Shown one piece after another: positions 117 through 22,262 of a stretch of DNA of 64,000 nucleotides. Position numbers and translations under genes: made by a program. Under the pieces are notes generated by a model. The model saw nothing but the letters and a program-made list of their open reading frames with translations, was not told the DNA's origin and made no database searches. Source of the stretch: a virus. Lineage: Duplodnaviria > Heunggongvirae > Uroviricota > Caudoviricetes. Every line of letters begins with the position of its first letter. Position 1 is the stretch's first letter. The stretch spans positions 22,201 through 86,200 of IMG/VR virus record IMGVR_UViG_3300037471_001733, one strand, 5' to 3'.

Positions 117-650
117 TCAGCTAATTGATGCGACCGTGCCGTCGCTGTTGTAGGTCCACGTCTGCAGCGTCACGCTGCCGCTCGTGACGGTGGAGACTTT
201 CTTTTTGCCGTTAACGGTGGTGTAGTTGACCGTGTAGGTCACGCCGTTGACGGTGTACGTCGCAACGGATTTGTCCGAGTTGTACGTATAGGTTGCGCCG
301 CTATTGATGATCCCCAGCAGCTTCAAATCGGCGGCATTGGTCGTCACCGAGAACCGCTTGGTGCCAGCTGAGAAATTGACCGGCAGCGTGGCGCTGCTAC
401 CGGACTGAGGCGATGTGCGCTCAAACGTATCGCCGCCGAGATACGTTCCCTCGCCGGTCTCCCACTGTCCGGTCGGCTGGTAGTTGGCATCCACGGCCTC
501 ATAGCGGTACGGGATGCGCGCGTTTACCGCAGCAACCGATTGCAGCGTGCGACGGCCCGGGAAAGGCGTCGTGGGGGACAGCGTGACGTTGCCAGTGCCG
601 GTACTTGTGCTCGTCTGAGCCACCGCGTCATGGAATTCCTTGATCGGCAT
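117..650 (-). CDS. hypothetical virion protein, possible fibre/receptor-binding protein (177 aa)
   Basis: Follows head-closure gene. N-terminal GTGNVTL...WETGEGTY segment recalls conserved fibre N-termini (memory only). C-terminal YTYNSD/WTYNSDG YD-like beta repeats. Confidence 0.45.
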   Translation of the reverse strand: MPIKEFHDAVAQTSTSTGTGNVTLSPTTPFPGRRTLQSVAAVNARIPYRYEAVDANYQPTGQWETGEGTYLGGDTFERTSPQSGSSATLPVNFSAGTKRFSVTTNAADLKLLGIINSGATYTYNSDKSVATYTVNGVTYTVNYTTVNGKKKVSTVTSGSVTLQTWTYNSDGTVASIS

Positions 651-654
651 GTGT

Positions 655-981
655 TCAGCTCTTCAGGTTCGTGTTCTCACAAGCCAGGTCGATGAACGCC
701 CTGTCGGAAGTCGGCATGACGGCGCGGATGTCGTAAGGCCTGCCGTCAATGAGCAATCGCATCCCGGCGTCAATACCGGTGCGATGTCGGATGCGCACGG
801 ACGCGCGCACCGTGGAGAGATCTGCGCCGCCCTTCACAGCCTCAAGGCCGTTGACGTGACGCACGTCAGCCCAAAGCCGCGCGATCTCGGTCCAATCGCC
901 GACGACCTCCTGGCCGAAGTCGTCCTTTCCGCTGGGACGCTGTTGCAACGTCACCCGGAAGTTGAAGGCGCCGGCACCCAT
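655..981 (-). CDS. head-closure / head-tail adaptor protein (SPP1 gp16 / HK97 gp7-like), 108 aa
   Basis: ATG 981 overlaps upstream stop (TAATG). FNFRVTLQQR...DDFGQ...VRIRHRTGI..GMRL.IDGRPYDI pattern typical of phage head-tail joining family; position after gp6-like gene. Confidence 0.75.
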   Translation of the reverse strand: MGAGAFNFRVTLQQRPSGKDDFGQEVVGDWTEIARLWADVRHVNGLEAVKGGADLSTVRASVRIRHRTGIDAGMRLLIDGRPYDIRAVMPTSDRAFIDLACENTNLKS

Positions 982-1550
982 TAGCCGTAGACCTTGAATG
1001 GTTCCAGCAGTCCGCACAGATACGGCAGCGCCGTCATCTGCTTGCCTGCAACAGCCTCACGGTTCGCATAGAAGGCGCCGACGTGCAGCAAGATCCACTG
1101 TCGAATGGACTGCGGCACATCTGCGGGGCTGGACCCGAAACCGGCGACGTAGCGCACGCGCACCGTGTTGATTTCGGCGCGCGTCGTCGGCCATGCCTTC
1201 TCGAAGGCTGGCACTAGGTATGCCGGCGACACGTCGTTGCTGTTGTCTAGAACGTAGTCCGCAGGGTCCAGCGTGGCTAGCACGCCGTCCTCATCCACGT
1301 ACTGCAGCGACTCGACGCCCAGCACCCTGGGCCACTCCAGGCGCAGCGCCTCGCCGAATGCGTCCGTCGTCATCTGCCACGTTGTGCTGATGAGCGTGCG
1401 CTGCATCTGGCCTTCGGCAAGTTGCCGAGCGGCGGTTATGAGGCCGCCTATCAGCAAGTCCTCTTCGTCGTGATCGACTCGAAGGTGCAGCTTTGCCTCT
1501 GCGACGCTCACCGGTTCGGTGGTCGCATCCACGAGCTTTACGGTTGACAT
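981..1550 (-). CDS. gp6-like head-tail connector protein
   Basis: N-terminus VSVAEAKLHLRVDHDEEDLLIGGLITAARQLAEG is the classic Phage_connect_1 signature. Confidence 0.8.
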   Translation of the reverse strand: MSTVKLVDATTEPVSVAEAKLHLRVDHDEEDLLIGGLITAARQLAEGQMQRTLISTTWQMTTDAFGEALRLEWPRVLGVESLQYVDEDGVLATLDPADYVLDNSNDVSPAYLVPAFEKAWPTTRAEINTVRVRYVAGFGSSPADVPQSIRQWILLHVGAFYANREAVAGKQMTALPYLCGLLEPFKVYG

Positions 1551-1553
1551 GCG

Positions 1554-3239
1554 CTACCTTCTTGGACGCTTCGTGTCGTTCAGACGTGGCGCGAAGCCGC
1601 TGCCGCTCGGAGCGCGGCGATATACCTGCGTCGTGTAGACATAAGCCGACAGTGCCGACTGCTGCGTCGCAGCACGCACTACCACTGCACTCAGAGGCGC
1701 CGAGGCAGAGGCTGCATTGACCACGACGGCCGTGACCGGAACGCTGGCGTTCTGAGCAACCTGCACGATCGTGCTCAGGTCTATCGACGTGCTCACGGGG
1801 TGGCTGGCGTCGATGTAGGCGCTCAGGCCAGAAACAGCCTCTGGCTGGCTCAGAACCCCGACACTGAGACCCGCGCTGCGGGTCATGGTGTCAAGCACCG
1901 CAGCACTGACATCAGCAGCCGCCGTGACGCTGACGGCCTCCATGACCATCAGCGACAAGCCGGCCTGCGTCGACTGTGCCGCCGCGATCACGACGTCAAG
2001 CGCCGTCTCCACCGCCTGCTCAACACTCAGTGCCGCACTCAGCGCGGCCTCGACGGCTTGGGTGACCGATACAGGAACTGACAGCTCTGCCTGGAGCAGC
2101 ATCGGCACGTTGATGCAGACATCCAGCGCTGCCGACGTGACCGGCTGATCAAGAACCGCTACCGAGACCTCGGCAAAAGCTTCAACGGGCGTTTCAATCG
2201 CCGCCGACATCTCCACCGTCAACTCGGGGATGGAGTGGATCTGCAGCGACAGATCGGCCGCTAGGGTGTTGCTGAAGAGCACACCGACGCTGAAGGGGAA
2301 ACTTACCTCCGCGTTGGACACCCGGCTGAAAACCGGCATGCCAACCTGCTCGTGCGCGTAAGTCGCCGCCCAGCCGATGTCGGCCGACCAGGCCAGCGGC
2401 AGCCCTTCGTCATAGAACGGGGTGCCAGGCGTCTGCGGCGGCACCGCACCGAGGCCGCCGAGTTCCAGCACTGCGAGACTGCGGAAGCCGGCGTCCTGTC
2501 GGATGTAGACGCTCAGCCCAGTGTTGGCTGAACGCGCCTCCAGCACTGCTGCGGACAACAGCACCTCTGCCGAGCGCGGCTCGTACACGCTGACCGACAG
2601 CGCTGCATCCAGCGAGGCGCTGCGCTGGTTGAACGCCGGCTGCACACCAAGGGGCTGGTATGCATAGATCGCCGACCAGCCGATGTCCGAGGCCCACGCT
2701 TGCGGAAGGCCCTCATCGTTGGCCGGAACCCGCGGCGTCTGCGGCGGCGCTGCTGAGATGCCGCCGGCTTCAAGTAGCGCCAGGCCGCGGAAACCGCTGG
2801 CCGTGGTGACGATCTGCGCGCTCAGTTCGGCGCTGTTCGTGCGCGCGGCCTGCACCGGCGCCGACAGCGGCGCCGACACAGAGCCGGCCTGCTGGACCGC
2901 TACGGACAGCGCCGCATCAGCCTTGGAGACCGGGACGCTGATTGCGCTAAGGCCGCCAGCCTCCAGCAACGCCAGGCCACGGAAACCGCCTTGCCGAATG
3001 TAGACGCTCAGCGGCGCGCTGAGGGTCACGCCCGTGCGCGGCGCGCTGATGCCGCCCAGCTCCAACAGCGCAACACTGCGCCAGCCGCCGTCCAGACGTA
3101 CCAGCGCGCTCAGCGGCGCGCTGGCCGTGGGCTTTGTGCTGACGGCTACCGAGAGCCCAGCCGAGGTGGTGCGCCCGGGGCCGAGCGCACTGACGCCACC
3201 CAGCTCTGGTAGCGCCAGCGAGCGAAAACCGCCCGCCAC
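1554..3239 (-). CDS. 561-aa Ala/Ser/Val/Leu-rich internally repetitive protein of unknown function (virion module)
   Basis: GTG start. Five copies of GGFR(S/G)LALLE(L/A)GG(I/L/V)SA, two ~100-aa tandem units (PPQTP..DEGLP.AW..DIGW), basic C-terminal tail RLNDTKRPRR. Confidence 0.6.
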   Translation of the reverse strand: MAGGFRSLALPELGGVSALGPGRTTSAGLSVAVSTKPTASAPLSALVRLDGGWRSVALLELGGISAPRTGVTLSAPLSVYIRQGGFRGLALLEAGGLSAISVPVSKADAALSVAVQQAGSVSAPLSAPVQAARTNSAELSAQIVTTASGFRGLALLEAGGISAAPPQTPRVPANDEGLPQAWASDIGWSAIYAYQPLGVQPAFNQRSASLDAALSVSVYEPRSAEVLLSAAVLEARSANTGLSVYIRQDAGFRSLAVLELGGLGAVPPQTPGTPFYDEGLPLAWSADIGWAATYAHEQVGMPVFSRVSNAEVSFPFSVGVLFSNTLAADLSLQIHSIPELTVEMSAAIETPVEAFAEVSVAVLDQPVTSAALDVCINVPMLLQAELSVPVSVTQAVEAALSAALSVEQAVETALDVVIAAAQSTQAGLSLMVMEAVSVTAAADVSAAVLDTMTRSAGLSVGVLSQPEAVSGLSAYIDASHPVSTSIDLSTIVQVAQNASVPVTAVVVNAASASAPLSAVVVRAATQQSALSAYVYTTQVYRRAPSGSGFAPRLNDTKRPRR

Positions 3240-3250
3240 AGTGGGCTACC

Positions 3251-3727
3251 TCAGGCGGCGCCGACGATGGGCACGGCCGCCGCGTCGGTGGTCAACGTCT
3301 GGGTGTACTGAGTCGTGGAGCCATCGGTCTTCTTGACCGTCAGCGTCGCGCCGGAAATGCTGAAGTCAGCGCGCAGGCCGGTGGTCTCAAGCCACTCGGT
3401 GCCTCCCACCAAGCTCTCGTACACGTTCGACGGAACGACCATGTAGTCATGCCACACGGGCAGCGCACCGGTTTCGTTCACTGCCACGCGCAAGCGGCCG
3501 AGAGTACCGGTGTCGGTGGCATTGATGGCCACGCTGTAGTAGCCGTTCTCCATGTGCGTTGCGGTAGTCGTTTCCGACTTTTGCGCGAAGGCTGCGGCGT
3601 TCTTGGACAGGCGGATCTTTGCTTGAGTCAGCGACAGAGCAGTCTCGGCCGTGAAACCATCGGTGCTGTCAACAAACGGACCGAGCACCAGCGTGGCGGC
3701 CGTGGATTGCTTGAGAAGAGTGCTCAT
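3251..3727 (-). CDS. hypothetical protein (158 aa), virion module
   Basis: ORF with ATGA overlap to upstream gene (3724/3727); protein-like composition; no motif recognised. Confidence 0.6.
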   Translation of the reverse strand: MSTLLKQSTAATLVLGPFVDSTDGFTAETALSLTQAKIRLSKNAAAFAQKSETTTATHMENGYYSVAINATDTGTLGRLRVAVNETGALPVWHDYMVVPSNVYESLVGGTEWLETTGLRADFSISGATLTVKKTDGSTTQYTQTLTTDAAAVPIVGAA

Positions 3728-4455
3728 TGCGCGGACCTCAGTCGGAATTGATGCATGGAACGAGGGGCCTGTGACTGGCTGCTGCCGGAGCCGAGAACTT
3801 CGATGGCGGCCAGCGTCCAGGTCTGTGAAGCGGGGGCCGTCATGCCAATCGCGTAGGTGCCAGTGGCGCCTGAATCGGCGTGGTAGCCGTGGTACACGCA
3901 GTACTCGTTGGCCAGTGTGTCGTTGTTCTGCGCAACGGCAGCAGTGCGCTGCGTGAACGTCCCGGCATTGCTGCGGTATGTCTGCGATGTCAACGCAGTG
4001 GCCGCACGGTCGCCGATGAACATCACCGCCGCCGAGTTGGCCCCGGTGGTCGTCAAGTTGACGGACGGAGCCGTGCCGGTACCGGAGCCAGAGACAACGG
4101 CACCGACGCCGCCAGCACTGCGGAACTGGTACGCCGTCGCGCCGAACACGATGCCATCGTCTCCTTCAGTGCCAGCGCCGCGCGAGACCGAGATCGTCAC
4201 GGACGCTGCCGTGGACGCAGTGGCGGTCCAGATGTAGAGCTCAGCGTGCGACGAGTCGACCGCGACGTCCGCGCGTTGCGTGTACGTGTTCGTCGCGCTG
4301 TCGCTAACGACTAGGCCGTCAATGTGCGATTTCAGGGTGCCAATGACGACGATCAGGTCGCCAACCTGCGTCGTGAGCGACATGGTCAGCGCGCTGCCGA
4401 AGGCCTGGGCCCATGTGCTCGTGTTTACGCTGGTGACAAAGGTTGGTGCTGCCAT
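3724..4455 (-). CDS. hypothetical protein (243 aa), Thr/Ser/Ala/Gly-rich beta-type, virion module
   Basis: ORF packed 3 nt after the beta-helix gene; no motif recognised. Confidence 0.6.
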   Translation of the reverse strand: MAAPTFVTSVNTSTWAQAFGSALTMSLTTQVGDLIVVIGTLKSHIDGLVVSDSATNTYTQRADVAVDSSHAELYIWTATASTAASVTISVSRGAGTEGDDGIVFGATAYQFRSAGGVGAVVSGSGTGTAPSVNLTTTGANSAAVMFIGDRAATALTSQTYRSNAGTFTQRTAAVAQNNDTLANEYCVYHGYHADSGATGTYAIGMTAPASQTWTLAAIEVLGSGSSQSQAPRSMHQFRLRSAQ

Positions 4456-4457
4456 GG

Positions 4458-5933
4458 TCAGGTTCTCTGGTAAGCGCCGCGGGTCCAGTTGCCAGCCACG
4501 CGCGGGACGCCATCCATGTCGATGTCGTACGGCGCCGCCAAGTCGATGCCGGCCGCAAAGCTGGCGGTGCTGGCGATGTGGTAATCGGCGCCGGCGTAGT
4601 TCTTGAAGATGGACGTCGGCACGCTGAAAATTGCGTTCGTTCCGGAGCCGCTGTAACTCGTGTTCGAAAACGCGTTATGCGACACCACTGAACCGCTTCC
4701 GGCCGTGATGGAGCCGCCGCTACCGATCCAGAGGTTGTTGCGCACGGTGTTGCCGCTGCCGTCCGGGAACTGGATGCCGGCGTTTCCTTCGAGGCCGCGG
4801 ATGAACGTGTTGTTGACGATCACGCAGCCAGTGCCGTTGCCGCCGTTGGTCGGGTTGCCCAGGAAGCCGATGGCGGCATCGCCGACATAGAACGTGTCGA
4901 AGACATTGCCGTACACGAAGATCGCGGGCTTGCGGCTCTGCGAGCGGTTGACGGCCACGGCGATGAGCGCGGTGCCGCCGAGCCCAGACTGGTAGCTGTT
5001 GCGCCAGACGTTGTGCCGAATGACGGTGTCGAACACCGAGAAATACACGTTGACGATTTCGCCGTGGTGCGTGCCGTTGCTCCACGCGTTCTCGCAGGCG
5101 TTGTATTCGATCACGCAGCCATCGGTCTGACGGATGAAGAAGACGTTGCTGCTGCGGTTTATGTAGTTGCGACTGAAGACGATTCCCGTACCCTGAATGT
5201 CGTTCGAGTCTGTATCGAACGTGTACGGCCGGTAGTTGCTGTCGGTCTGCGGGCCAATGCCGTAGCAGTAGCAGCGCGTGATGGTGACGTTGTTGACGGC
5301 TGTGCCGCCGAAGCGGATGTTCTGGCCGCGGGCGTTGCCGCCGGGGCCGGTGGTCGTTCCGTTGCCGCCGGACGTCGAGTGGTCGATGCGGATGCCGTAG
5401 CTGTCGCCGTCGAACCAGTTCAACTCGTTGCGCGTGCCGCCGTCAATGATCCAGTTGCTCGTGTTGATGGTGATCGGTTCGAGCTGGCTGGTGAAGTACG
5501 CCTGGCCGGTGCCGAAGGAATCTGACCAGCCCTGGTTGGTGCCGTGATCCGAGATAGTGGCCTTCTTGATCGTGATGTAGAGCGATCCGTTCGTGGCCGT
5601 GCTCAGCGTGCGCGTGGTGTAGGTACCAGACTTCAGGTAGTACGTGAATCCGCGCTGAAAATTGACTGTGCTCCAGGGCGCCACGTTGTTCCAGTCATCC
5701 CCGGATTGGTCACCAGAGGGCAGCGGACCAACGTACTTGGCATTCGTCGGCGCCTGCGCCTGCTGATCGATCTGCATTGACAGGCCGGCAGATAGAAGCC
5801 GCTGGTACCGCAATGCGAGGGAAAGCGGGCCCGACGCAATGGCGGACGCCGGCTGCGCAAACGACTCCGATGGTCGCTTGCGCTGCGGTCGCCCCATGCC
5901 GGCGCGCACTGCAATGGGCCTGCTGTACGCCAT
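4458..5933 (-). CDS. right-handed parallel beta-helix repeat protein (pectate-lyase/tailspike-like fold), 491 aa
   Basis: Repeated PbH1-like turns: NNVTITRCYCYGIG, GIVFSRNYINRSSNVFFIR, CVIEYNACEN, TVIRHNVWRNS, CVIVNNTFIRG, NTVRNNLWIGSGG, SVVSHNAFSN. Confidence 0.65.
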   Translation of the reverse strand: MAYSRPIAVRAGMGRPQRKRPSESFAQPASAIASGPLSLALRYQRLLSAGLSMQIDQQAQAPTNAKYVGPLPSGDQSGDDWNNVAPWSTVNFQRGFTYYLKSGTYTTRTLSTATNGSLYITIKKATISDHGTNQGWSDSFGTGQAYFTSQLEPITINTSNWIIDGGTRNELNWFDGDSYGIRIDHSTSGGNGTTTGPGGNARGQNIRFGGTAVNNVTITRCYCYGIGPQTDSNYRPYTFDTDSNDIQGTGIVFSRNYINRSSNVFFIRQTDGCVIEYNACENAWSNGTHHGEIVNVYFSVFDTVIRHNVWRNSYQSGLGGTALIAVAVNRSQSRKPAIFVYGNVFDTFYVGDAAIGFLGNPTNGGNGTGCVIVNNTFIRGLEGNAGIQFPDGSGNTVRNNLWIGSGGSITAGSGSVVSHNAFSNTSYSGSGTNAIFSVPTSIFKNYAGADYHIASTASFAAGIDLAAPYDIDMDGVPRVAGNWTRGAYQRT

Positions 5934-5936
5934 GAC

Positions 5937-6380
5937 TCAGCCGTCGATCTCTTCGATCGCCAGGTTGATCGTCACGTTGCCCGTGCCGCTGGCACTGCGG
6001 ATGCTGACCTGGCCGCTGACAGGCACCGGGAACTCCCAGCCGGGCGCGGCGACGTACTTGTCGATGCCGCCGTTGGCGTTGGGGCCCATGCGCCACAGGA
6101 TTGCGCCGTCCAGCGTCGGGGCTGCGGCCCAGGTCGTATAGACGCTGAAGGACGCCGCTGCGCTGGACGGGTTCAGCTTGCTGGGCGTGATCGCGCCGCC
6201 GGGCGTCGTGCCTCCGGAACTGCGCTGCACCAGGATTTCGTTGACGGCCGATGCCGTGTCCATCCCTTTGATGTCGATGACGGTGATGCGCAACGGCTTG
6301 GTGGAACTGGCGACGATGGTGAGCAGGTCGGCCGTCGTGCTGAGCGTGGTGCGGGCACGCGAAACTGAGAAGAGAGGCAT
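5937..6380 (-). CDS. hypothetical protein (147 aa), virion module
   Basis: ORF, tight spacing to neighbours; no motif recognised. Confidence 0.55.
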   Translation of the reverse strand: MPLFSVSRARTTLSTTADLLTIVASSTKPLRITVIDIKGMDTASAVNEILVQRSSGGTTPGGAITPSKLNPSSAAASFSVYTTWAAAPTLDGAILWRMGPNANGGIDKYVAAPGWEFPVPVSGQVSIRSASGTGNVTINLAIEEIDG

Positions 6381-6727: not shown

Positions 6728-7216
6728 TCAGACTTCATCCCAGGAAAAGTAGACGCTGTCACCTTGCGCGAGGCCGCCCGTCGCAGTCGACTGCACTTCG
6801 CACATCAGGACCAAGTGGTCGCCCTTTTCGCCAGTGCTCGTGTACGGGCCGGCGCCAAGACTCAGCGCGGAGCCGGACGTGTAGCCAAAGAAGTTGTTGT
6901 AGCCGGTGGTAGCCGTGGCCTCGGCCGGCGTGGCGTAGGTGGTCACGGCCTTTGCCCACAGCAGAACACCGGTGCCCAGGCTGTTGGTGCCGTCGGAGTA
7001 CGCCTTGATGCCGGTGATCTGCGAGTACGTGCCGCCGGTCACCTCCAGGCGCAACCACTTCTCATACGAGAAATCGCTGCCGCTGGTCGGCTTGACCATC
7101 GGGTTGTTCAGATCGACGGCGCTGTTGTCCGCATTTTTGAACCGGATGCCACTGGCCGCGTCCGTCGCGGTTGCACCGGCCCCATTTTTTTGCACGATGC
7201 GAGTCGTTGCGGCCAT
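6728..7216 (-). CDS. hypothetical protein (162 aa), candidate abundant capsid-accessory protein
   Basis: Strong RBS (GAGGAGGccacATG), own terminators on both sides, directly downstream of capsid region; no motif recognised. Confidence 0.55.
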   Translation of the reverse strand: MAATTRIVQKNGAGATATDAASGIRFKNADNSAVDLNNPMVKPTSGSDFSYEKWLRLEVTGGTYSQITGIKAYSDGTNSLGTGVLLWAKAVTTYATPAEATATTGYNNFFGYTSGSALSLGAGPYTSTGEKGDHLVLMCEVQSTATGGLAQGDSVYFSWDEV

Positions 7217-7227
7217 GTGGCCTCCTC

Positions 7228-7256
7228 AAAAAGAAAAGCCGCCCGAAGGCGGCTTG
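7228..7256 (-). terminator. rho-independent terminator after the 145-aa gene
   Basis: AGCCGCC(7237-7243)/GGCGGCT(7248-7254) stem, cgaa loop, T-rich tail on minus strand. Confidence 0.7.
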
Positions 7257-7785: not shown

Positions 7786-9033
7786 TCAGGACGCGGAAAT
7801 TTTGAGCTTCTTCATCGCGTCGCTCTGACGCACGCCGCCACCGACGCGCTTGCGGGCGCGGTACACCACGAGGCCGTTGTCGGCTTCGGTGATGTAATCG
7901 GCCTGGAAGCCCAGGCCGATGCGATCAACGATGGTGTATGCGCGCTTGAAGTCACCCCACAGCACCGGGTAGGCGCTGGCCGCGATGTCCGGAAGGTCAG
8001 GGAACTCAACGTACGGAGCGCCCAAGATCGTGTTCGCCACGGCGTTGGCGAAGCCAGGGGTCCAGAGGTAGTTGCCTTGGCCGTCCTTAAGCTTGCGGAT
8101 GTCACGGATGGTCTTGCGGTTCAGCGCGAACATCGCGTTGGCAGCGTAGGCCGTCTTCAGCTCGAACTGCAGGTTGATCAGGCCGTCAGACGTGATCTTG
8201 GTAGCGTCGCCGCTGACCACCTCACCGATGCCAGAGGCCACCAGCAGGCCCTCCATTTGCTGAGCGGCGGAGCCAACGCCGTTGATGGACTCGGCGCCTT
8301 CCTTCACGGCCATCTGCTCGGCGACTTCCATGCGCAGCTCGCCAAGGAGGTCGTAGTCCGAATCCTCCAACATCTGTTGCGACACGCGGTTGCGCGCGAA
8401 CATTTCCGGGGCCGTGATCTCGCCCATCCCATACTTGGGATCGGTCGTGTCCGTACGGGTCTCGATTTCACCGACGCGCTTGGCGCTGCCGGTGCCGACA
8501 CGCTTGGGCCACTTGTACGAGTGGCCGCCGATAATGCGCACGGTGGCGAGTCGACGGATGGGCGACTGCTCCACGATGTCCTTGAGGATCGCGCGCTCCA
8601 GATCCGGCGGGGCAAGCAGGTAGCCGGCGGACTGGTCGTCGCCCTTCACCAGAGACGCCATGTGCGTCTTGATGACCTGCATGTCCTCCAGCGAGCGGGC
8701 CTCATGGCGGGTGCGCATCACGCGGTTGAACGCGGCTTGCAGCTTGGCGTTCTCGGCGGCGGAGTCGGCAGCGGTGGAGCCGGGGCGCTGCAGCATGGTC
8801 TGGACTTGATCCAGTTGCTCCTGCATGGCCTTCGCAGCATTCTGCTGGGCCAGCAGTTGCTGGTTCATGTTCTCGTAGCGATCCAGCGTATCGCTGATCG
8901 CCTCGACCTTGGCAGTCAGGTCGCCAACGGCCTTGCCGTCAGCCTTGGCCGAGATGAGCTTGTCGTTGTGCTCACGCAGTTGCGTGACGGCTTCCATTAC
9001 TTCCTGGATGCCATCATTGGTGATGTTGGGCAT
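7786..9033 (-). CDS. major capsid protein, HK97 family (with N-terminal delta/scaffold-like coiled coil)
   Basis: 415 aa. N-terminal coiled coil then GGYLLAPPDLERAILKDIVEQSPIRRLATV... typical HK97-fold MCP; position after ClpP-like protease. Confidence 0.9.
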   Translation of the reverse strand: MPNITNDGIQEVMEAVTQLREHNDKLISAKADGKAVGDLTAKVEAISDTLDRYENMNQQLLAQQNAAKAMQEQLDQVQTMLQRPGSTAADSAAENAKLQAAFNRVMRTRHEARSLEDMQVIKTHMASLVKGDDQSAGYLLAPPDLERAILKDIVEQSPIRRLATVRIIGGHSYKWPKRVGTGSAKRVGEIETRTDTTDPKYGMGEITAPEMFARNRVSQQMLEDSDYDLLGELRMEVAEQMAVKEGAESINGVGSAAQQMEGLLVASGIGEVVSGDATKITSDGLINLQFELKTAYAANAMFALNRKTIRDIRKLKDGQGNYLWTPGFANAVANTILGAPYVEFPDLPDIAASAYPVLWGDFKRAYTIVDRIGLGFQADYITEADNGLVVYRARKRVGGGVRQSDAMKKLKISAS

Positions 9034-20405: not shown

Positions 20406-20453
20406 CAGCGCGCATAACGGCGCCGTCCCGGCTTGAGGCGGCAGGAGATTCAG

Positions 20454-22262
20454 ATGTCAGCACAAGACTTGATTGTTAGGATCAACGCAGCCGCCCAGGT
20501 GGCCCCGGAGCAACTGCCCAAAGGGGCGCAGCCGCGCGACCACATGATTGCCTTTGAGTACACCGACGCCCACGGCACGCGCGGCTGCATGCGCATCCTG
20601 AACACCCGGGCGCGGCTGCTGGCCTTCGCTGAGCAGGTGCGGAAGAACGCGGCAGCATTCGACGGCAAGCCGCGCAGCAAGCCCGCCGGGCCGCGCAAGA
20701 TTGCCGGCGCATCCCCGCTTTCCACGGCGCGCGCACTGCTCAAGGATGGCGCGCGGGTTGAAGCCCTCGCAGCGCTTGAGGCGCGCGGCGGGGAGGTGTT
20801 TTTCGGCGCCGCTGGCGTGCCTGTGCTGCATCAGGTTGCACAGCGCGTGGAGCACGAGGGCCGCCGCTGGGTTGTCACGCGCTGCGCCGTTGATGGTCTC
20901 ATCTACCTCATTCACGAGGCGTCCGGGCTGTCAGCAGGCGGCAAGGGCTTGCCTGAGATGCGCAGCATTGCGGATGCCCTGGCGCGGCTTGAGCTCGTGC
21001 ACCGGGACGAGGCGGAAAACGGCTACCGGCAGCGAATGATTGCTGCGATCGAGCAAGCGGCGGATTACGACCAGCAGGCGGCGCGCGCGGCTTTCGAGGC
21101 GTGCGATGGTCTCAAGAGCAAGGATGCCGCGCCGGTGGCTCAGGAAGCGTACCAGCAGGCGCGCGCGCTGTCGGCGGCGCAGGTGGCGCCCGATGTCGAG
21201 CCGGCAGTAGATGCAGACCCCTCCCCGGTGGAAAGCGAAGCCGAGGCGGCACCCCCTGTAGCGGAAACGCCTGCGGCAGCTGACACCCCTGCAGCGGAAA
21301 TCGAGTCCAGCGCGCCGGCGGTTGCGCCAGCATCCCCTCCGGCGGATTCACAGGCAGGCGCTGCACCCCCTGCGATGGAAAGCGCGCAGCCTGCGCCGCT
21401 TGCCACCGCGCCAGGCCGATCGGATGCGCTCATCGCGCGGGCCATCGCTTGGGTTGCCGTAGTCTGGGGAACCGCCAGCGTGCCGAGCGTTGCGGACTAC
21501 CGCGCCGGCCGGTGCGATGACACATTCCCGTGGGCGGGCGGCAGCCGCGCCGCCGGCTATCTGACATGGGCCGACCTCATTGGCGAGTGCATGGCCGCGC
21601 TGGAGCGCGACGACAGCGCCGACCAGGCGGCACGAGACGCCGCACTGCAACCACCGACCCCCATCCGTAGGAAAGGCCCGCGACAACATGAGCAGCACAC
21701 CCCATCCCGTGCAACCCGCAGTGCCAACCGGCCGCGAGTGGTGGACCCGCGGGCTGCTCGACTGGCACGCCGAGGCGCTGCACGCCGCCCAGGAGATCGC
21801 CGCGCTGCGCGAATCACTGGCTGCGGAGCGCGCAATGGTCCGCGAGCTGCAGGAGGCGCTCGCTGCCCGCCGGCAGGCCGCTTGACCCCTTCCCGGGGAA
21901 TCACGGCGCCACAAGCTTGCCGCCCCTGGCGCGACGCCAGCGAAACCCGAGACTGCACCCATAAAAACCTGGAGCACAGCATGACCTACACCGAAGCCAT
22001 CCAAGCCCTGCGCGACGCTATTGCGCAGGCCCCGAAGGGTGAAAAGCTGCAAGCCTTCCAAGCCAAGCGGGAGAAGATAATAGGGGCAATGCCCAAGGTG
22101 GAAATCTGTGGCGGCGAGCAGTGCATCCGCTATCCCAAGGGCTACCGCTTTGACTGCGGTCGCGAGGTCCACACGGACTGGATGTGGCAACCGTTTGCCA
22201 GCGAGGAAATCGCCATGCGGCCTGGCAACCTGCCGTACATCCTGCGCATGCCGGCTGCCTGA
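20454..22262 (+). CDS. long open frame; N-terminal ~400 codons look like a real two-domain protein with Pro/Ala/Glu repeat linker; 3' end probably composite
   Basis: AGGAG RBS before ATG 20454. No in-frame stop for 1.8 kb; frame turns Arg-rich (junk-like) from about 21660 to 21980, then is in frame with the 93-aa ORF. Confidence 0.4.
   Translation: MSAQDLIVRINAAAQVAPEQLPKGAQPRDHMIAFEYTDAHGTRGCMRILNTRARLLAFAEQVRKNAAAFDGKPRSKPAGPRKIAGASPLSTARALLKDGARVEALAALEARGGEVFFGAAGVPVLHQVAQRVEHEGRRWVVTRCAVDGLIYLIHEASGLSAGGKGLPEMRSIADALARLELVHRDEAENGYRQRMIAAIEQAADYDQQAARAAFEACDGLKSKDAAPVAQEAYQQARALSAAQVAPDVEPAVDADPSPVESEAEAAPPVAETPAAADTPAAEIESSAPAVAPASPPADSQAGAAPPAMESAQPAPLATAPGRSDALIARAIAWVAVVWGTASVPSVADYRAGRCDDTFPWAGGSRAAGYLTWADLIGECMAALERDDSADQAARDAALQPPTPIRRKGPRQHEQHTPSRATRSANRPRVVDPRAARLARRGAARRPGDRRAARITGCGARNGPRAAGGARCPPAGRLTPSRGITAPQACRPWRDASETRDCTHKNLEHSMTYTEAIQALRDAIAQAPKGEKLQAFQAKREKIIGAMPKVEICGGEQCIRYPKGYRFDCGREVHTDWMWQPFASEEIAMRPGNLPYILRMPAA
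21218..21382 (+). repeat. five copies of CCCC(C)T-N4-6-(T/C)GGA(A/T)(A/T) motif inside the linker-coding region
   Basis: Copies starting 21218, 21252, 21286, 21334 (degenerate), 21366; 32-48 bp spacing; encode PSPVESE/PPVAET/TPAAEIE/SPPADSQ/PPAMESA. Confidence 0.55.
21688..21885 (+). CDS. hypothetical coiled-coil protein (65 aa), nested in another frame of the long ORF
   Basis: AGGAAAGG RBS; protein-like sequence (REWWTRGLLDWHAEALHAAQEIAALRESLAAERAMVRELQEAL); stop in TGACCCCTTCC motif. Confidence 0.5.
   Translation: MSSTPHPVQPAVPTGREWWTRGLLDWHAEALHAAQEIAALRESLAAERAMVRELQEALAARRQAA
21981..22262 (+). CDS. hypothetical protein (93 aa)
   Basis: RBS ctGGAGcacagcATG; protein-like composition. 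Confidence 0.5.
   Translation: MTYTEAIQALRDAIAQAPKGEKLQAFQAKREKIIGAMPKVEICGGEQCIRYPKGYRFDCGREVHTDWMWQPFASEEIAMRPGNLPYILRMPAA

What the first reader, a model, noticed from the sequence alone, without database searches (positions are those of the whole stretch)
1554..3239. 561-aa low-complexity protein built from GGFRSLALLELGG-type repeats
Five copies of GGFR(S/G)LALLE(L/A)GG(I/L/V)SA are interspersed with (L/V)S(A/V)x(V/I) beta-strand-like repeats. There are two ~100-aa tandem units (...PPQTP..DEGLP.AW..DIGW.A.YA...), a long Ala/Val/Ser/Leu-rich C-terminal half, and a short basic tail (RLNDTKRPRR).

I do not recognise this repeat from any characterised phage protein family. Given its location just before the connector gene, it could be an internal/ejection protein, a fibre or a scaffold.
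Basis: seen in the sequence. Interest (0 to 1): 0.55.

Follow-up and report, generated by a model that had tools for sequence, protein, structure and literature searches.

The report
Repeat-built stalk protein of phage appendage
This is a real, conserved phage gene for a repeat-built, beta-strand-rich protein from a family nobody has characterised. It travels with a small cassette of sugar-targeting appendage genes that moves between unrelated phages, so it is most likely the stalk or adaptor of a host-binding fibre.

Summary
ORF 1554-3239 (-) encodes 561 aa with five GGFRSLALLELGG-type motifs, two ~100-aa tandem units and a basic tail.

It is a genuine gene. dN/dS is 0.21-0.34, the three closest homologues show no indels, and synteny is conserved.

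It has no Pfam, PHROG, NCBIfam, PADLOC or PDB relative, and only about 30 distant relatives among 1.8 billion representative proteins. Two AlphaFold runs failed (pLDDT 34 and 41).

Context carries the argument. The motif plus an aromatic module (P..YD.G.P..W..D.GW...YA....G.P...R) defines a rare family. This family always lies 2-6 kb downstream of a highly conserved 147-aa protein. The genes in between are variable, and in two lineages include SASA acetylesterases. This cassette sits at different places in the structural regions of siphovirus-like and podovirus-like contigs.

Best reading (confidence about 0.5): the protein is the stalk or adaptor of a portable glycan-targeting appendage. The scaffold and high-GC-artefact readings are rejected. 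An internal/ejection protein or an assembly factor is not excluded. Its position in the virion is unknown.

The parts
1554..3239 (-). Whole gene: 561-aa repeat protein, GTG start, TAG stop at 1554-1556.
   Evidence: GC3 is 0.78 against GC2 0.54. dN/dS is 0.21-0.34 against homologues.
3249..3252 (-). GAGG Shine-Dalgarno for the GTG start. It overlaps the stop codon of the upstream 158-aa gene.
   Evidence: The same arrangement occurs in L002.
3195..3230 (-). GG-flanked motif 1, GFRSLALPELGG, at the extreme N-terminus (aa 4-15).
3051..3086 (-). GG-flanked motif 2, GWRSVALLELGG (aa 52-63).
   Evidence: This stretch is invariant in the three closest homologues.
2952..2987 (-). GG-flanked motif 3, GFRGLALLEAGG (aa 85-96).
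2760..2795 (-). GG-flanked motif 4, GFRGLALLEAGG (aa 149-160). It opens tandem unit 1.
2454..2489 (-). GG-flanked motif 5, GFRSLAVLELGG (aa 251-262). It opens tandem unit 2 and is the copy conserved in all distant relatives.
2616..2750 (-). Aromatic/proline module copy 1 (aa 164-208): PPQTPRVPANDEGLPQAWASDIGWSAIYAYQPLGVQPAFNQRS.
2310..2444 (-). Aromatic/proline module copy 2 (aa 266-310): PPQTPGTPFYDEGLPLAWSADIGWAATYAHEQVGMPVFSRVS. This is the family-defining module.
   Evidence: It is invariant at G, P, D, G and G across 12 sequences.
2499..2804 (-). Tandem unit 1 (aa 146-247): motif, then module, then three 14-aa units.
   Evidence: z = 18 against unit 2.
2193..2498 (-). Tandem unit 2 (aa 248-349).
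1611..2294 (-). Shaft: 16 contiguous 14-residue (two of 16-residue) beta-strand units, aa 316-543, ending in LSAYVY. This is the fastest-evolving part of the protein.
1557..1619 (-). Conserved basic C-terminal tail RRAPSGSGFAPRLNDTKRPRR (net charge +6, against -20 for the rest of the protein).
   Evidence: The tail is identical in the otherwise 39-44 % identical L007 orthologue.
1557..1563 (-). AAGAAGG, from the last codons CCA AGA AGG. It doubles as the Shine-Dalgarno for the adaptor gene, whose ATG is at 1550.
3251..3727 (-). 158-aa partner gene. It is adjacent to the motif protein in the window clade, L007, L008, L012 and L015.
3724..4455 (-). 243-aa variable cassette gene. No family hit.
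4458..5933 (-). 491-aa variable cassette gene, in the position where other lineages carry SASA esterase or lyase-like genes. It looks beta-helix-like by eye only; there is no Pfam hit.
5937..6380 (-). 147-aa conserved cassette gene, 59-93 % identical across siphovirus-like and podovirus-like contigs.
6728..7216 (-). 162-aa gene, the first gene of the mosaic block in the window clade.
7236..7255 (-). Terminator-like hairpin after the capsid and 145-aa genes. It marks the left edge of the mosaic block.
981..1550 (-). Head-tail adaptor (Ad1), translationally coupled to the target.

Best explanation
The gene encodes a late, virion-associated, elongated beta-repeat protein. It most likely acts as the stalk or adaptor of an accessory, polysaccharide-targeting appendage.

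**Shown**
- It is a real protein under purifying selection.
- It consists of an N-terminal half with five Gly-flanked amphipathic 12-mers and two Pro/Trp/Tyr-rich modules. This is followed by a shaft of 16 consecutive 14-residue units, each carrying a seven-residue strand with alternating hydrophobic residues, and then by an invariant basic tail.
- The 12-mer plus aromatic module is the only part shared by all relatives. These include 108-143-aa mini-proteins made of little else.
- In every assessable locus the family lies 2-6 kb downstream of a conserved 147-aa protein. The genes in between are variable. They are SASA acetylesterases in two lineages and include a LamG-domain protein in a third.
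- The cassette occupies different sites within the structural regions of unrelated phage genomes.

**Inferred**
- The N-terminal 12-mers and aromatic modules are extended docking elements that fold only on a partner. The partner would be the co-inherited 147-aa or 158-aa proteins, the enzyme subunits, or a socket on the virion.
- The 14-residue repeats form a rigid beta-stalk, either a beta-solenoid or a trimeric beta-spiral/helix, that spaces the enzyme or lectin subunits away from the particle.
- The basic tail is a second attachment point.

Whether the appendage sits on the head, the neck or the tail is not determined.
For: **Real gene**
- dN/dS is 0.21-0.34. The three closest homologues are each 561 aa with no indel. 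Synteny is conserved.

**Beta-repeat shaft**
- Lag-14 z = 7.8.
- The unit consensus A-x-L-S-(A/V)-x-(V/I) alternates hydrophobic positions.
- The low-confidence AF2 model places one 6-7-residue strand per unit.

**The same repeat elsewhere**
- The same 14-residue repeat, LSAY(I/V)Y cap and often a basic tail follow an N-terminal globular domain in metagenomic proteins P0006, P0009-P0018 and P0033.
- That domain scores as LamG in P0009, the one of these proteins with a Pfam hit.
- A Microcystis phage protein with a P0006-like N-terminal domain is one of the last large genes of the block that ends just before the integrase.

**Family core**
- Motif plus module. It stands alone in L009 (143 aa) and P0036 (108 aa).
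- The first motif sits at residues 3-18 in most members.

**Cassette co-occurrence**
-.

**Neighbours that act on glycans or are fibres**
- SASA esterases in L009 and L023, above the Pfam cut-off, and a weak lyase-like hit in L012.
- A LamG protein in L015.
- 'Tail fiber' PHROG hits next to the family member in L012 and L025.
- An FN3-repeat protein follows the L008 homologue, seen by eye in its sequence only.

**Variable insertion sites, always inside structural regions**
-.

**The related siphovirus has only a minimal tail tip**
- A 302-aa protein and a 616-aa 'tail spike' lie between the tape measure and the endolysin. The extra adhesin-like genes are therefore the ones in this cassette.

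**Evolution pattern**
- The shaft evolves fastest and both ends are conserved.

**Not a defence system**
- No PADLOC hit.
Against: - There is no direct evidence that the protein is in the virion: no proteomics, and no cultured phage carries it.
- No structure could be predicted (pLDDT 33.7 and 40.7). The stalk geometry, oligomeric state and docking role are therefore inference.
- The window's own 491-aa and 243-aa neighbours have no detectable enzyme or lectin domain.
- Guilt by association could equally point to an assembly factor.
- The module is duplicated and the motif is present five times in the window protein, but the number of partners is unknown.
- The C-terminal conservation is partly confounded by the embedded ribosome-binding site of the adaptor gene.
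Confidence: 0.5

Rival explanations
1. The protein is a non-virion assembly factor (chaperone or template) for the cassette's fibre or enzyme subunits. It would resemble tail-fibre assembly proteins, which are encoded just downstream of the fibre they fold.
For: - The family member is usually among the last genes of the cassette, after the enzyme-like and LamG-like genes.
- The mini forms are only 108-143 aa, a typical size for a chaperone.
- The motif/module region does not fold alone in AF2.
Against: - A 230-residue periodic beta-repeat shaft that evolves quickly while keeping its exact length is not expected of a chaperone.
- The same repeat in the other metagenomic proteins is part of the fibre-like protein itself.
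- The mini forms are Pro/Gly-rich and non-globular.
Confidence: 0.13
2. The protein is an internal (pilot or ejection) head protein, packaged with the DNA. The basic tail binds DNA and the amphipathic 12-mers act during envelope penetration.
For: - The gene lies in the head-neck region, between the capsid and adaptor genes.
- The body is acidic and the tail strongly basic.
- Relatives in L012 and L015 lie near giant polyvalent proteins (LPD38, LPD1/ART-PolyVal), which are often packaged.
Against: - The window clade is siphoviral, with its own tape measure, so no separate ejection proteins are needed.
- The sequence has no transmembrane-length hydrophobic stretch. The motif core is only 9 residues.
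- The co-inherited genes are glycan esterases and lectin-like proteins, which act outside the cell.
- The position in the genome varies widely.
Confidence: 0.12
3. The protein is a precursor cut by the prohead protease at the repeated L-x-E|xGG sites (as at T4-type L/I-x-E sites), releasing several peptides or a mature shaft.
For: - Glu is present at the same motif position in 26 of 29 instances, and Gly-Gly follows two residues later in all 29.
- A ClpP-type prohead protease is encoded upstream.
Against: - The L007 orthologue has Gly or Ala instead of Glu in all three of its motifs (LALPGLGG, LLLALGG). The mini forms use PLPSLGLL(D/G)GLG.
- The capsid protein's expected maturation region, by my own reading of its sequence and HK97-type sites recalled from memory, shows no such motif (sequence).
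- The L-x-E rule comes from T4-type proteases, recalled from memory, not from ClpP-type ones.
Confidence: 0.05
4. The ORF is a non-coding high-GC artefact and the repeats are compositional noise.
For: The window is 63-66 % GC, and many long shadow ORFs overlap the region on the other strand.
Against: - dN/dS is 0.21-0.34 in this frame.
- Homologues at 58-74 % identity have no indels or stops.
- GC3 is 0.78 against GC2 0.54.
- There is a Shine-Dalgarno and tight coupling to both neighbouring genes.
- Synteny is conserved in more than 10 contigs.
Confidence: 0.01

Closest known systems
Uncharacterised metagenomic proteins built as an N-terminal globular domain followed by 14-residue repeats
   Same: - They carry the same 14-residue unit (x-A-S-L-S-A-A-V/I-Q/R-x-A-x-x-A), aligned in register over 130-220 residues, with E-values from 1e-10 to 1e-4 against 1.8 billion proteins.
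- They have the same LSAY(I/V)Y terminal unit and often a basic C-terminal tail.
   Different: - They have an N-terminal globular domain (LamG in P0009) in place of the GG-motif and aromatic-module half.
Triple beta-spiral fibre shafts (adenovirus fibre, reovirus sigma1). Recalled from the literature, not tested by structure.
   Same: Short (15-residue) sequence repeats with alternating hydrophobic residues in a strand and Gly/Pro-rich turns. They build a thin, rigid stalk that carries a distal binding domain.
   Different: - The period here is 14, not 15.
- The spacing of the second hydrophobic pair differs.
- There is no sequence similarity to any PDB chain.
- Trimerisation is untested, and the AF2 monomer model is uninformative.
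Branched adaptor-plus-enzyme tailspike systems (for example N4-like phage G7C gp66 with the SGNH esterase gp63.1; CBA120 and K1-5 adaptors). From memory.
   Same: A non-enzymatic fibre or adaptor protein is encoded next to interchangeable glycan-active subunits. SASA/SGNH-type esterases neighbour the family in L009 and L023. The N-terminal parts are conserved and the rest is mosaic.
   Different: - No sequence relationship was detected.
- Docking here would rely on reiterated Gly-flanked 12-mers, which are not described for those systems.
- The cassette is not tied to a podovirus tail. In the window it sits between the capsid and adaptor genes of a siphovirus.
Head fibres and decoration proteins (phi29 gp8.5, P68/Andhra head fibres, 7-7-1 head fibres, RcGTA head spikes)
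   Same: The gene is placed just after the major capsid protein, and the architecture is fibrous (papers listed).
   Different: - There is no sequence similarity to any solved chain.
- Relatives of this family are found away from capsid genes.
- The block is 90-95 % identical next to an unrelated capsid gene. This argues against a capsid-lattice-specific binder, or at least does not support one.

Membership tests
Any curated phage fibre, tailspike or structural family (Pfam, PHROGs, NCBIfam) | A significant profile-HMM match. | tested here: not met
   Zero families at E <= 0.1 (Pfam, PHROGs) or E <= 0.05 (NCBIfam) for the target, and none at E <= 0.01 (Pfam, PHROGs) for its L003 and L007 orthologues.
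Tape measure protein | Encoded between the tail assembly chaperone and the distal tail genes, with a PHROG or Pfam TMP match. | tested here: not met
   In related contigs the TMP is a separate 1383-aa gene downstream of the tail tube and chaperone genes. The target has no TMP match.
Scaffolding protein | Encoded between the portal/protease and capsid genes, helical, and needed when the capsid protein lacks a delta domain. | tested here: not met
   The gene lies about 4.5 kb downstream of the capsid gene and beyond a terminator-like hairpin. The capsid protein has 138 residues before PF05065 begins. The target's pattern is an alternating beta-strand.
Triple beta-spiral fibre shaft | A 15-residue repeat with hydrophobic positions c, e, g, k, m and a Gly/Pro turn. 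| tested here: inconclusive
   The period is 14. The hydrophobic positions are -2, 1, 3, 5 and, weakly, 11. Pro or Gly is frequent just before the strand.
Triple beta-spiral fibre shaft | Homotrimeric assembly. | not testable with these tools
   Only monomer AF2 was available, and its models were low-confidence.
Single-chain beta-solenoid or beta-helix | A confident model or a fold match to beta-helices. | tested here: inconclusive
   The Foldseek top hits are all beta-helices, but with E >= 1.1 and from a model of pLDDT 34.
Podovirus internal/ejection proteins | Encoded with tail or core genes of a short-tailed phage, with a match to known core-protein families. | tested here: not met
   The window clade has a siphovirus tail module. 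There is no family match.
Head fibre or decoration proteins with solved structures | Sequence similarity to a solved head-fibre or decoration chain. | tested here: not met
   A profile search of all PDB sequences gave no hit at E <= 1.
Substrates of prohead proteases (T4-type L/I-x-E sites) | An invariant acidic P1 residue at every repeated site, and cleavage products. | tested here: inconclusive
   Glu is present in 26 of 29 motifs but is replaced in all three L007 motifs and in the mini forms. Cleavage itself cannot be tested here.
New 'GG-motif plus aromatic module' family (defined here) | At least one (G/A)G(F/Y)RSLxx(L/M)ExGG or PLPSLGLLxGxG element, followed by P..(Y/F)D.G.P..W..D.G(W/Y/F)...YA....G.P...R. 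| tested here: met
   Alignments A2 and A3. The module profile scores E = 1e-16 to 2e-12 in the new loci L023-L025. The target has five motifs and two modules.
New 'GG-motif plus aromatic module' family (defined here) | Encoded 2-6 kb downstream of a 147-aa-family gene. | tested here: met
   This holds in every assessable locus carrying a 147-aa homologue of at least 59 % identity: the window, L002-L009, L012, L015 and L023-L025. It does not hold for the 40-43 % identical homologues L028-L031.
Anti-phage defence systems | A PADLOC model match for any cassette protein. | tested here: not met
   Zero hits for nine cassette and neighbouring proteins.

The most novel reading that the evidence does not exclude
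The reiterated Gly-flanked 12-mers (GGFRSLALLELGG or PLPSLGLLGGLG) are a previously undescribed kind of docking peptide. They would make this protein a multivalent hub. Together with the conserved 147-aa and 158-aa proteins, it would form a self-contained, plug-and-play appendage. Such an appendage could be moved between siphovirus and podovirus particles regardless of capsid or tail type, carrying interchangeable glycan esterases or lyases on a new 14-residue beta-repeat stalk.
Probability: 0.22. Interest if true: 0.72.

Novelty: new variant of a known kind. Interest (0 to 1): 0.5.

Why it matters
If the reading is right, three things follow.

- **A new building block of phage host-recognition machinery.** It would consist of a stalk fold based on a 14-residue beta repeat plus a short reiterated docking peptide. 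It is packaged in a cassette that evidently crosses between unrelated virion types. In L003 the cassette is 90-95 % identical while the capsid gene is unrelated. The 147-aa protein is 59-69 % identical in podovirus-like contigs.
- **Relevance to host-range work.** Such portable modules are what host-range engineering and the study of host-range evolution look for.
- **Annotation of dark matter.** Seven consecutive genes in this window, and their relatives in more than 10 contigs, have no match in the four HMM libraries or the PDB. Only one, the 158-aa gene, has any GenBank-phage relative, an unannotated Microcystis phage protein.

A culturable lysogen, Azohydromonas lata NBRC 102462, makes the question directly testable.

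If the reading is wrong, the protein is still a rare, strongly constrained repeat protein of unknown fold.

Tried and rejected
1. **Direct homology.** Pfam, PHROGs, NCBIfam, PADLOC, PDB sequence profiles, tblastn and megablast against 50,697 GenBank phages all gave nothing for the target.
2. **Word-indexed protein search.** It returned only 2-3 relatives even with alignments, because the candidate list is swamped or the query is short. The exhaustive HMMER search was the productive one.
3. **AlphaFold2.** The full length with 3 sequences gave pLDDT 33.7. The motif-plus-module unit with 8 sequences gave pLDDT 40.7 and no secondary structure. Foldseek on the poor model gave no hit below E = 1.
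4. **Rosetta-stone idea.** I asked whether the neighbouring 243-aa protein equals the N-terminal domain of the globular-domain-plus-repeat proteins P0004, P0006, P0011 and P0012. BLASTP gave E >= 0.26, so the idea is rejected.
5. **Protease-site idea (L-x-E|xGG).** It is weakened because the L007 orthologue and the mini forms lack the Glu.
6. **Scaffold and tape-measure readings.** Both are rejected on position and pattern.
7. **Recent DNA duplication.** TRF finds nothing relevant and the codons have diverged.
9. **Partner families in the PDB and GenBank phages.**
   - The 147-aa family has no PDB relative.
   - The 158-aa family was not searched against the PDB.
   - The 147-aa protein has no GenBank-phage relative.
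   - The 158-aa protein has one, an unannotated protein of a Microcystis phage.
10. **Does the C-terminal half co-vary with the adaptor gene?** Not consistently. In L002 the adaptor is 89 % identical but the shaft only 27-57 %.
Full report
**1. The observation**

The ORF 1554..3239 on the minus strand (GTG start, 561 aa) is present as described. Its translation contains five copies of G[FW]R[SG][LV]A[LV][LP]E[LA]GG[ILV][SG]A, at residues 4, 52, 85, 149 and 251. A six-frame regex scan finds this motif, and the DEGLPxAWxxDIGWxxxYA module, only in this gene within the 64-kb window.

The two ~100-aa units (aa 146-247 and 248-349) align with a score 18 SD above shuffles. The composition is A 98, S 69, V 66 and L 60 out of 561. 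The protein ends in RRAPSGSGFAPRLNDTKRPRR. The body has net charge -20 and the tail +6.

- There are 25 units, 16 of them contiguous from aa 316 to 543.
- Identity autocorrelation has z = 7.8, 4.9 and 4.0 at lags 14, 28 and 42.
- The unit consensus is A-x-L-S-(A/V)-x-(V/I), that is, four alternating small or hydrophobic positions.
- The pattern phi-[SDT]-phi-x-phi occurs 30 times, against 4.1 +/- 1.9 in shuffles.

The repeats are not recent DNA duplications. TRF reports only two trivial 12-mers. Identical residues in different motif copies share the same codon only about half the time.

**2. It is a real gene**

- GC by codon position is 0.69, 0.54 and 0.78.
- A GAGG lies 9 nt upstream of the GTG start.
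- The stop codon is 3 nt from the ATG of the adaptor gene, and the final codons CCA AGA AGG form that gene's Shine-Dalgarno.
- Two metagenomic homologues are 74 % and 58-61 % identical. Both are 561 aa once the truncated call of P0002 is extended to its GTG, and neither has a single indel.
- dN/dS is 0.21, 0.33 and 0.34 for the three pairs.

The high-GC-artefact refuter is therefore excluded.

**3. No known family**

Pfam, PHROGs, NCBIfam and PADLOC give no hit. Profile searches of all PDB sequences give none. tblastn and megablast against 50,697 GenBank phages give none.

An exhaustive HMMER search of 1.84 billion representative proteins gives 33 hits at E <= 1e-3, and only P0002 is close. 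AlphaFold2 failed twice (pLDDT 33.7 and 40.7). Foldseek on the poor model gave nothing below E = 1, although all the top non-significant hits were beta-helices. The low-confidence model does place one 6-7-residue strand in each 14-residue unit.

**4. What the distant relatives show**

They fall into two groups.

*Group (a)* shares the Gly-flanked motif and the aromatic module.
- From 29 instances the motif is (G/A)G(F/Y)RSL(A/L)(L/W)(L/M)E(L/A/G)GG(A/I)(G/S)A.
- After the last copy comes P..(Y/F)D.G.P..W..D.G(W/Y/F)...YA....G.P...R (alignment A2).
- A variant motif, PAPLPSLGLL(D/G)GLG, replaces it in some members.
- Members range from 108-143-aa mini-proteins that contain little else (P0036, L009) to 300-860-aa proteins with other repeats.
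- In most members the first motif lies at residues 3-18.

*Group (b)* shares only the 14-residue repeat, which follows an N-terminal globular domain. That domain scores as LamG in P0009, the one member with a Pfam hit. These proteins end in LSAY(I/V)Y, often with a basic tail.

The window protein is therefore a fusion of a family-defining N-terminal docking-like half with a shaft type that is also used elsewhere.

**5. Genomic context**

In the window the minus-strand order is:
- TerS, TerL, portal, ClpP-type protease and capsid protein;
- a 145-aa gene;
- a terminator-like hairpin at 7236-7255;
- genes of 162, 83, 147, 491, 243 and 158 aa;
- the target;
- adaptor Ad1, head-closure Hc1 and a 177-aa gene.

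Related IMG/VR contigs continue with four more genes. One of these is an 815-aa protein with SWM_repeat and Big_13 domains. After them come Tc1, the tail terminator, the tail tube, the chaperone and the tape measure. The clade is therefore siphoviral.

In the L007 phage the tail tip after the tape measure consists only of a 302-aa protein and a 616-aa 'tail spike', followed by the endolysin.

The block is mosaic:
- In L003-L006 the genes from 162 aa to 158 aa are mostly 90-95 % identical to the window (the 83-aa gene is 77 %). The capsid gene is undetectable and the portal is only 30 % identical.
- Within the target, identity to L003 is 80-100 % up to about aa 300 and 30-55 % across the shaft.

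**6. A portable cassette**

The 147-aa protein is 59-93 % identical in contigs of quite different types. In every assessable locus a motif/module protein lies 2-6 kb downstream. The positions are:

| Locus | Cassette position |
|---|---|
| Window clade | between the capsid and Ad1 genes |
| L023 | between portal and capsid |
| L009 | just upstream of TerL and portal |
| L012 | after SU10-type adaptor genes |
| L025 | between a tape-measure-like gene and a 1188-aa tail fibre gene |

The 158-aa family accompanies the motif protein in the window clade, L007, L008, L012 and L015.

The variable genes in between include:
- SASA carbohydrate acetylesterases in L009 and L023, both above the Pfam cut-off;
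- a weak lyase-like hit in L012;
- a LamG protein in L015.

Only two of 185,579 species genomes carry the 147-aa gene: Azohydromonas lata NBRC 102462 and A. aeria. No GenBank phage carries it.

**7. Interpretation**

The evidence best fits a late structural protein that forms the stalk or adaptor of an accessory, glycan-targeting appendage.
- The N-terminal motifs and modules would be extended docking elements. They are conserved, they sit at the extreme N-terminus in most relatives, and they do not fold alone.
- The 14-residue units would form a beta-stalk.
- The invariant basic tail would be a second contact.

Confidence is about 0.5. The step from context to virion location, and the docking role itself, are inferences. 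Whether the appendage sits on the head, the neck or the tail is open. The variable insertion sites, and the coexistence with an unrelated capsid gene, argue that the cassette brings its own attachment logic.

**8. Rivals**

- Assembly chaperone, 0.13. It explains the end-of-cassette position and the small mini forms. It does not explain a length-constrained, fast-evolving shaft.
- Internal/ejection protein, 0.12. It explains the basic tail and the head-region position. It does not fit a siphovirus with its own tape measure, or the extracellular-enzyme partners.
- Protease-processed precursor, 0.05. The Glu is not conserved in L007 or in the mini forms.
- Artefact, 0.01.

**9. Novelty and score**

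The fibre-like nature is ordinary for phages. The motif/module core, the 14-residue repeat and the roaming cassette have no characterised counterpart in any library searched. I rate it a new variant of a known kind, with interest 0.5. The most novel reading still open is a multivalent docking hub of a plug-and-play appendage, with probability about 0.22 and interest 0.72 if true.

Noticed in passing
window 7236-7255 (-): A strong terminator-like hairpin (8 bp stem, 6 GC pairs, T-run) lies right after the 145-aa gene that follows the capsid gene. It coincides with the left edge of the block that is 90-95 % identical in L003-L006, where the capsid gene is unrelated.
   Followed up: partly
window 117-650 (-); L003 11871-15792: Relatives carry a second insertion between the head-closure (Hc1) and tail-completion (Tc1) genes. 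It has four genes of 180, 123, 181 and 815 aa; the 815-aa protein has SWM_repeat and Big_13 domains. The window's 177-aa gene is the first member, and the rest lies off the window's left end.
   Followed up: partly
window 5937-6380 (-): A 147-aa protein with 59 invariant columns across six lineages ends in an invariant EE.DG. It is 59-69 % identical between siphovirus-like and podovirus-like contigs, yet has no Pfam, PHROG, PDB or GenBank-phage relative.
   Followed up: partly
L009 1656-2489; L023 10441-11271; L012 4922-8920: In other lineages the gene directly downstream of the 147-aa gene is a SASA (sialate O-acetylesterase-type) carbohydrate esterase, or a weakly PcRGLX lyase-like protein. 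The window's 491-aa gene in the same slot has no detectable domain.
   Followed up: partly
window 1557-1563 (-): The target's last two Arg residues use the rare codons AGA AGG. With the preceding A-rich bases they form the Shine-Dalgarno for the adaptor gene 6 nt downstream, so the two genes are translationally coupled.
   Followed up: yes
L002 4017-4154: The database gene call for homologue P0002 (515 aa) is truncated. The ORF extends 46 codons upstream to a GTG with a GAGG Shine-Dalgarno, giving 561 aa like the window protein.
   Followed up: yes
L033, L034 (Azohydromonas lata NBRC 102462; A. aeria CFCC 13393): These are the only two species-representative genomes, out of 185,579, that carry the cassette's 147-aa gene. 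Both are Azohydromonas, which points to that genus or a related one as the likely host and gives a culturable lysogen.
   Followed up: no
window 20433-22262 (+): A 609-aa ORF lies in the most GC-rich stretch of the window (GC 0.69, AT skew +0.13). It has a long acidic Pro/Ala-rich linker, an atypical codon-position GC pattern and no Pfam hit. It may be two genes or a frame problem.
   Followed up: no
window 7786-9033 (-): The major capsid protein has about 138 residues before the HK97-type domain. By eye, from the sequence alone, this stretch looks like a delta or scaffolding domain with coiled-coil character. The prohead protease upstream is ClpP-type.
   Followed up: partly
L011 9001-9624 (Microcystis phage Mvi-Yong1342-1); L032 8920-10797 (Microcystis phage Mae-JY28): These are the only GenBank-phage relatives of cassette-associated proteins. 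One is a 207-aa homologue of the 158-aa protein, lying after an 849-aa protein. The other is a 625-aa protein with a P0006-like N-terminal domain followed by Gly/Ser/Ala repeats. Both lie at the end of a run of same-strand genes and both are unannotated.
   Followed up: partly
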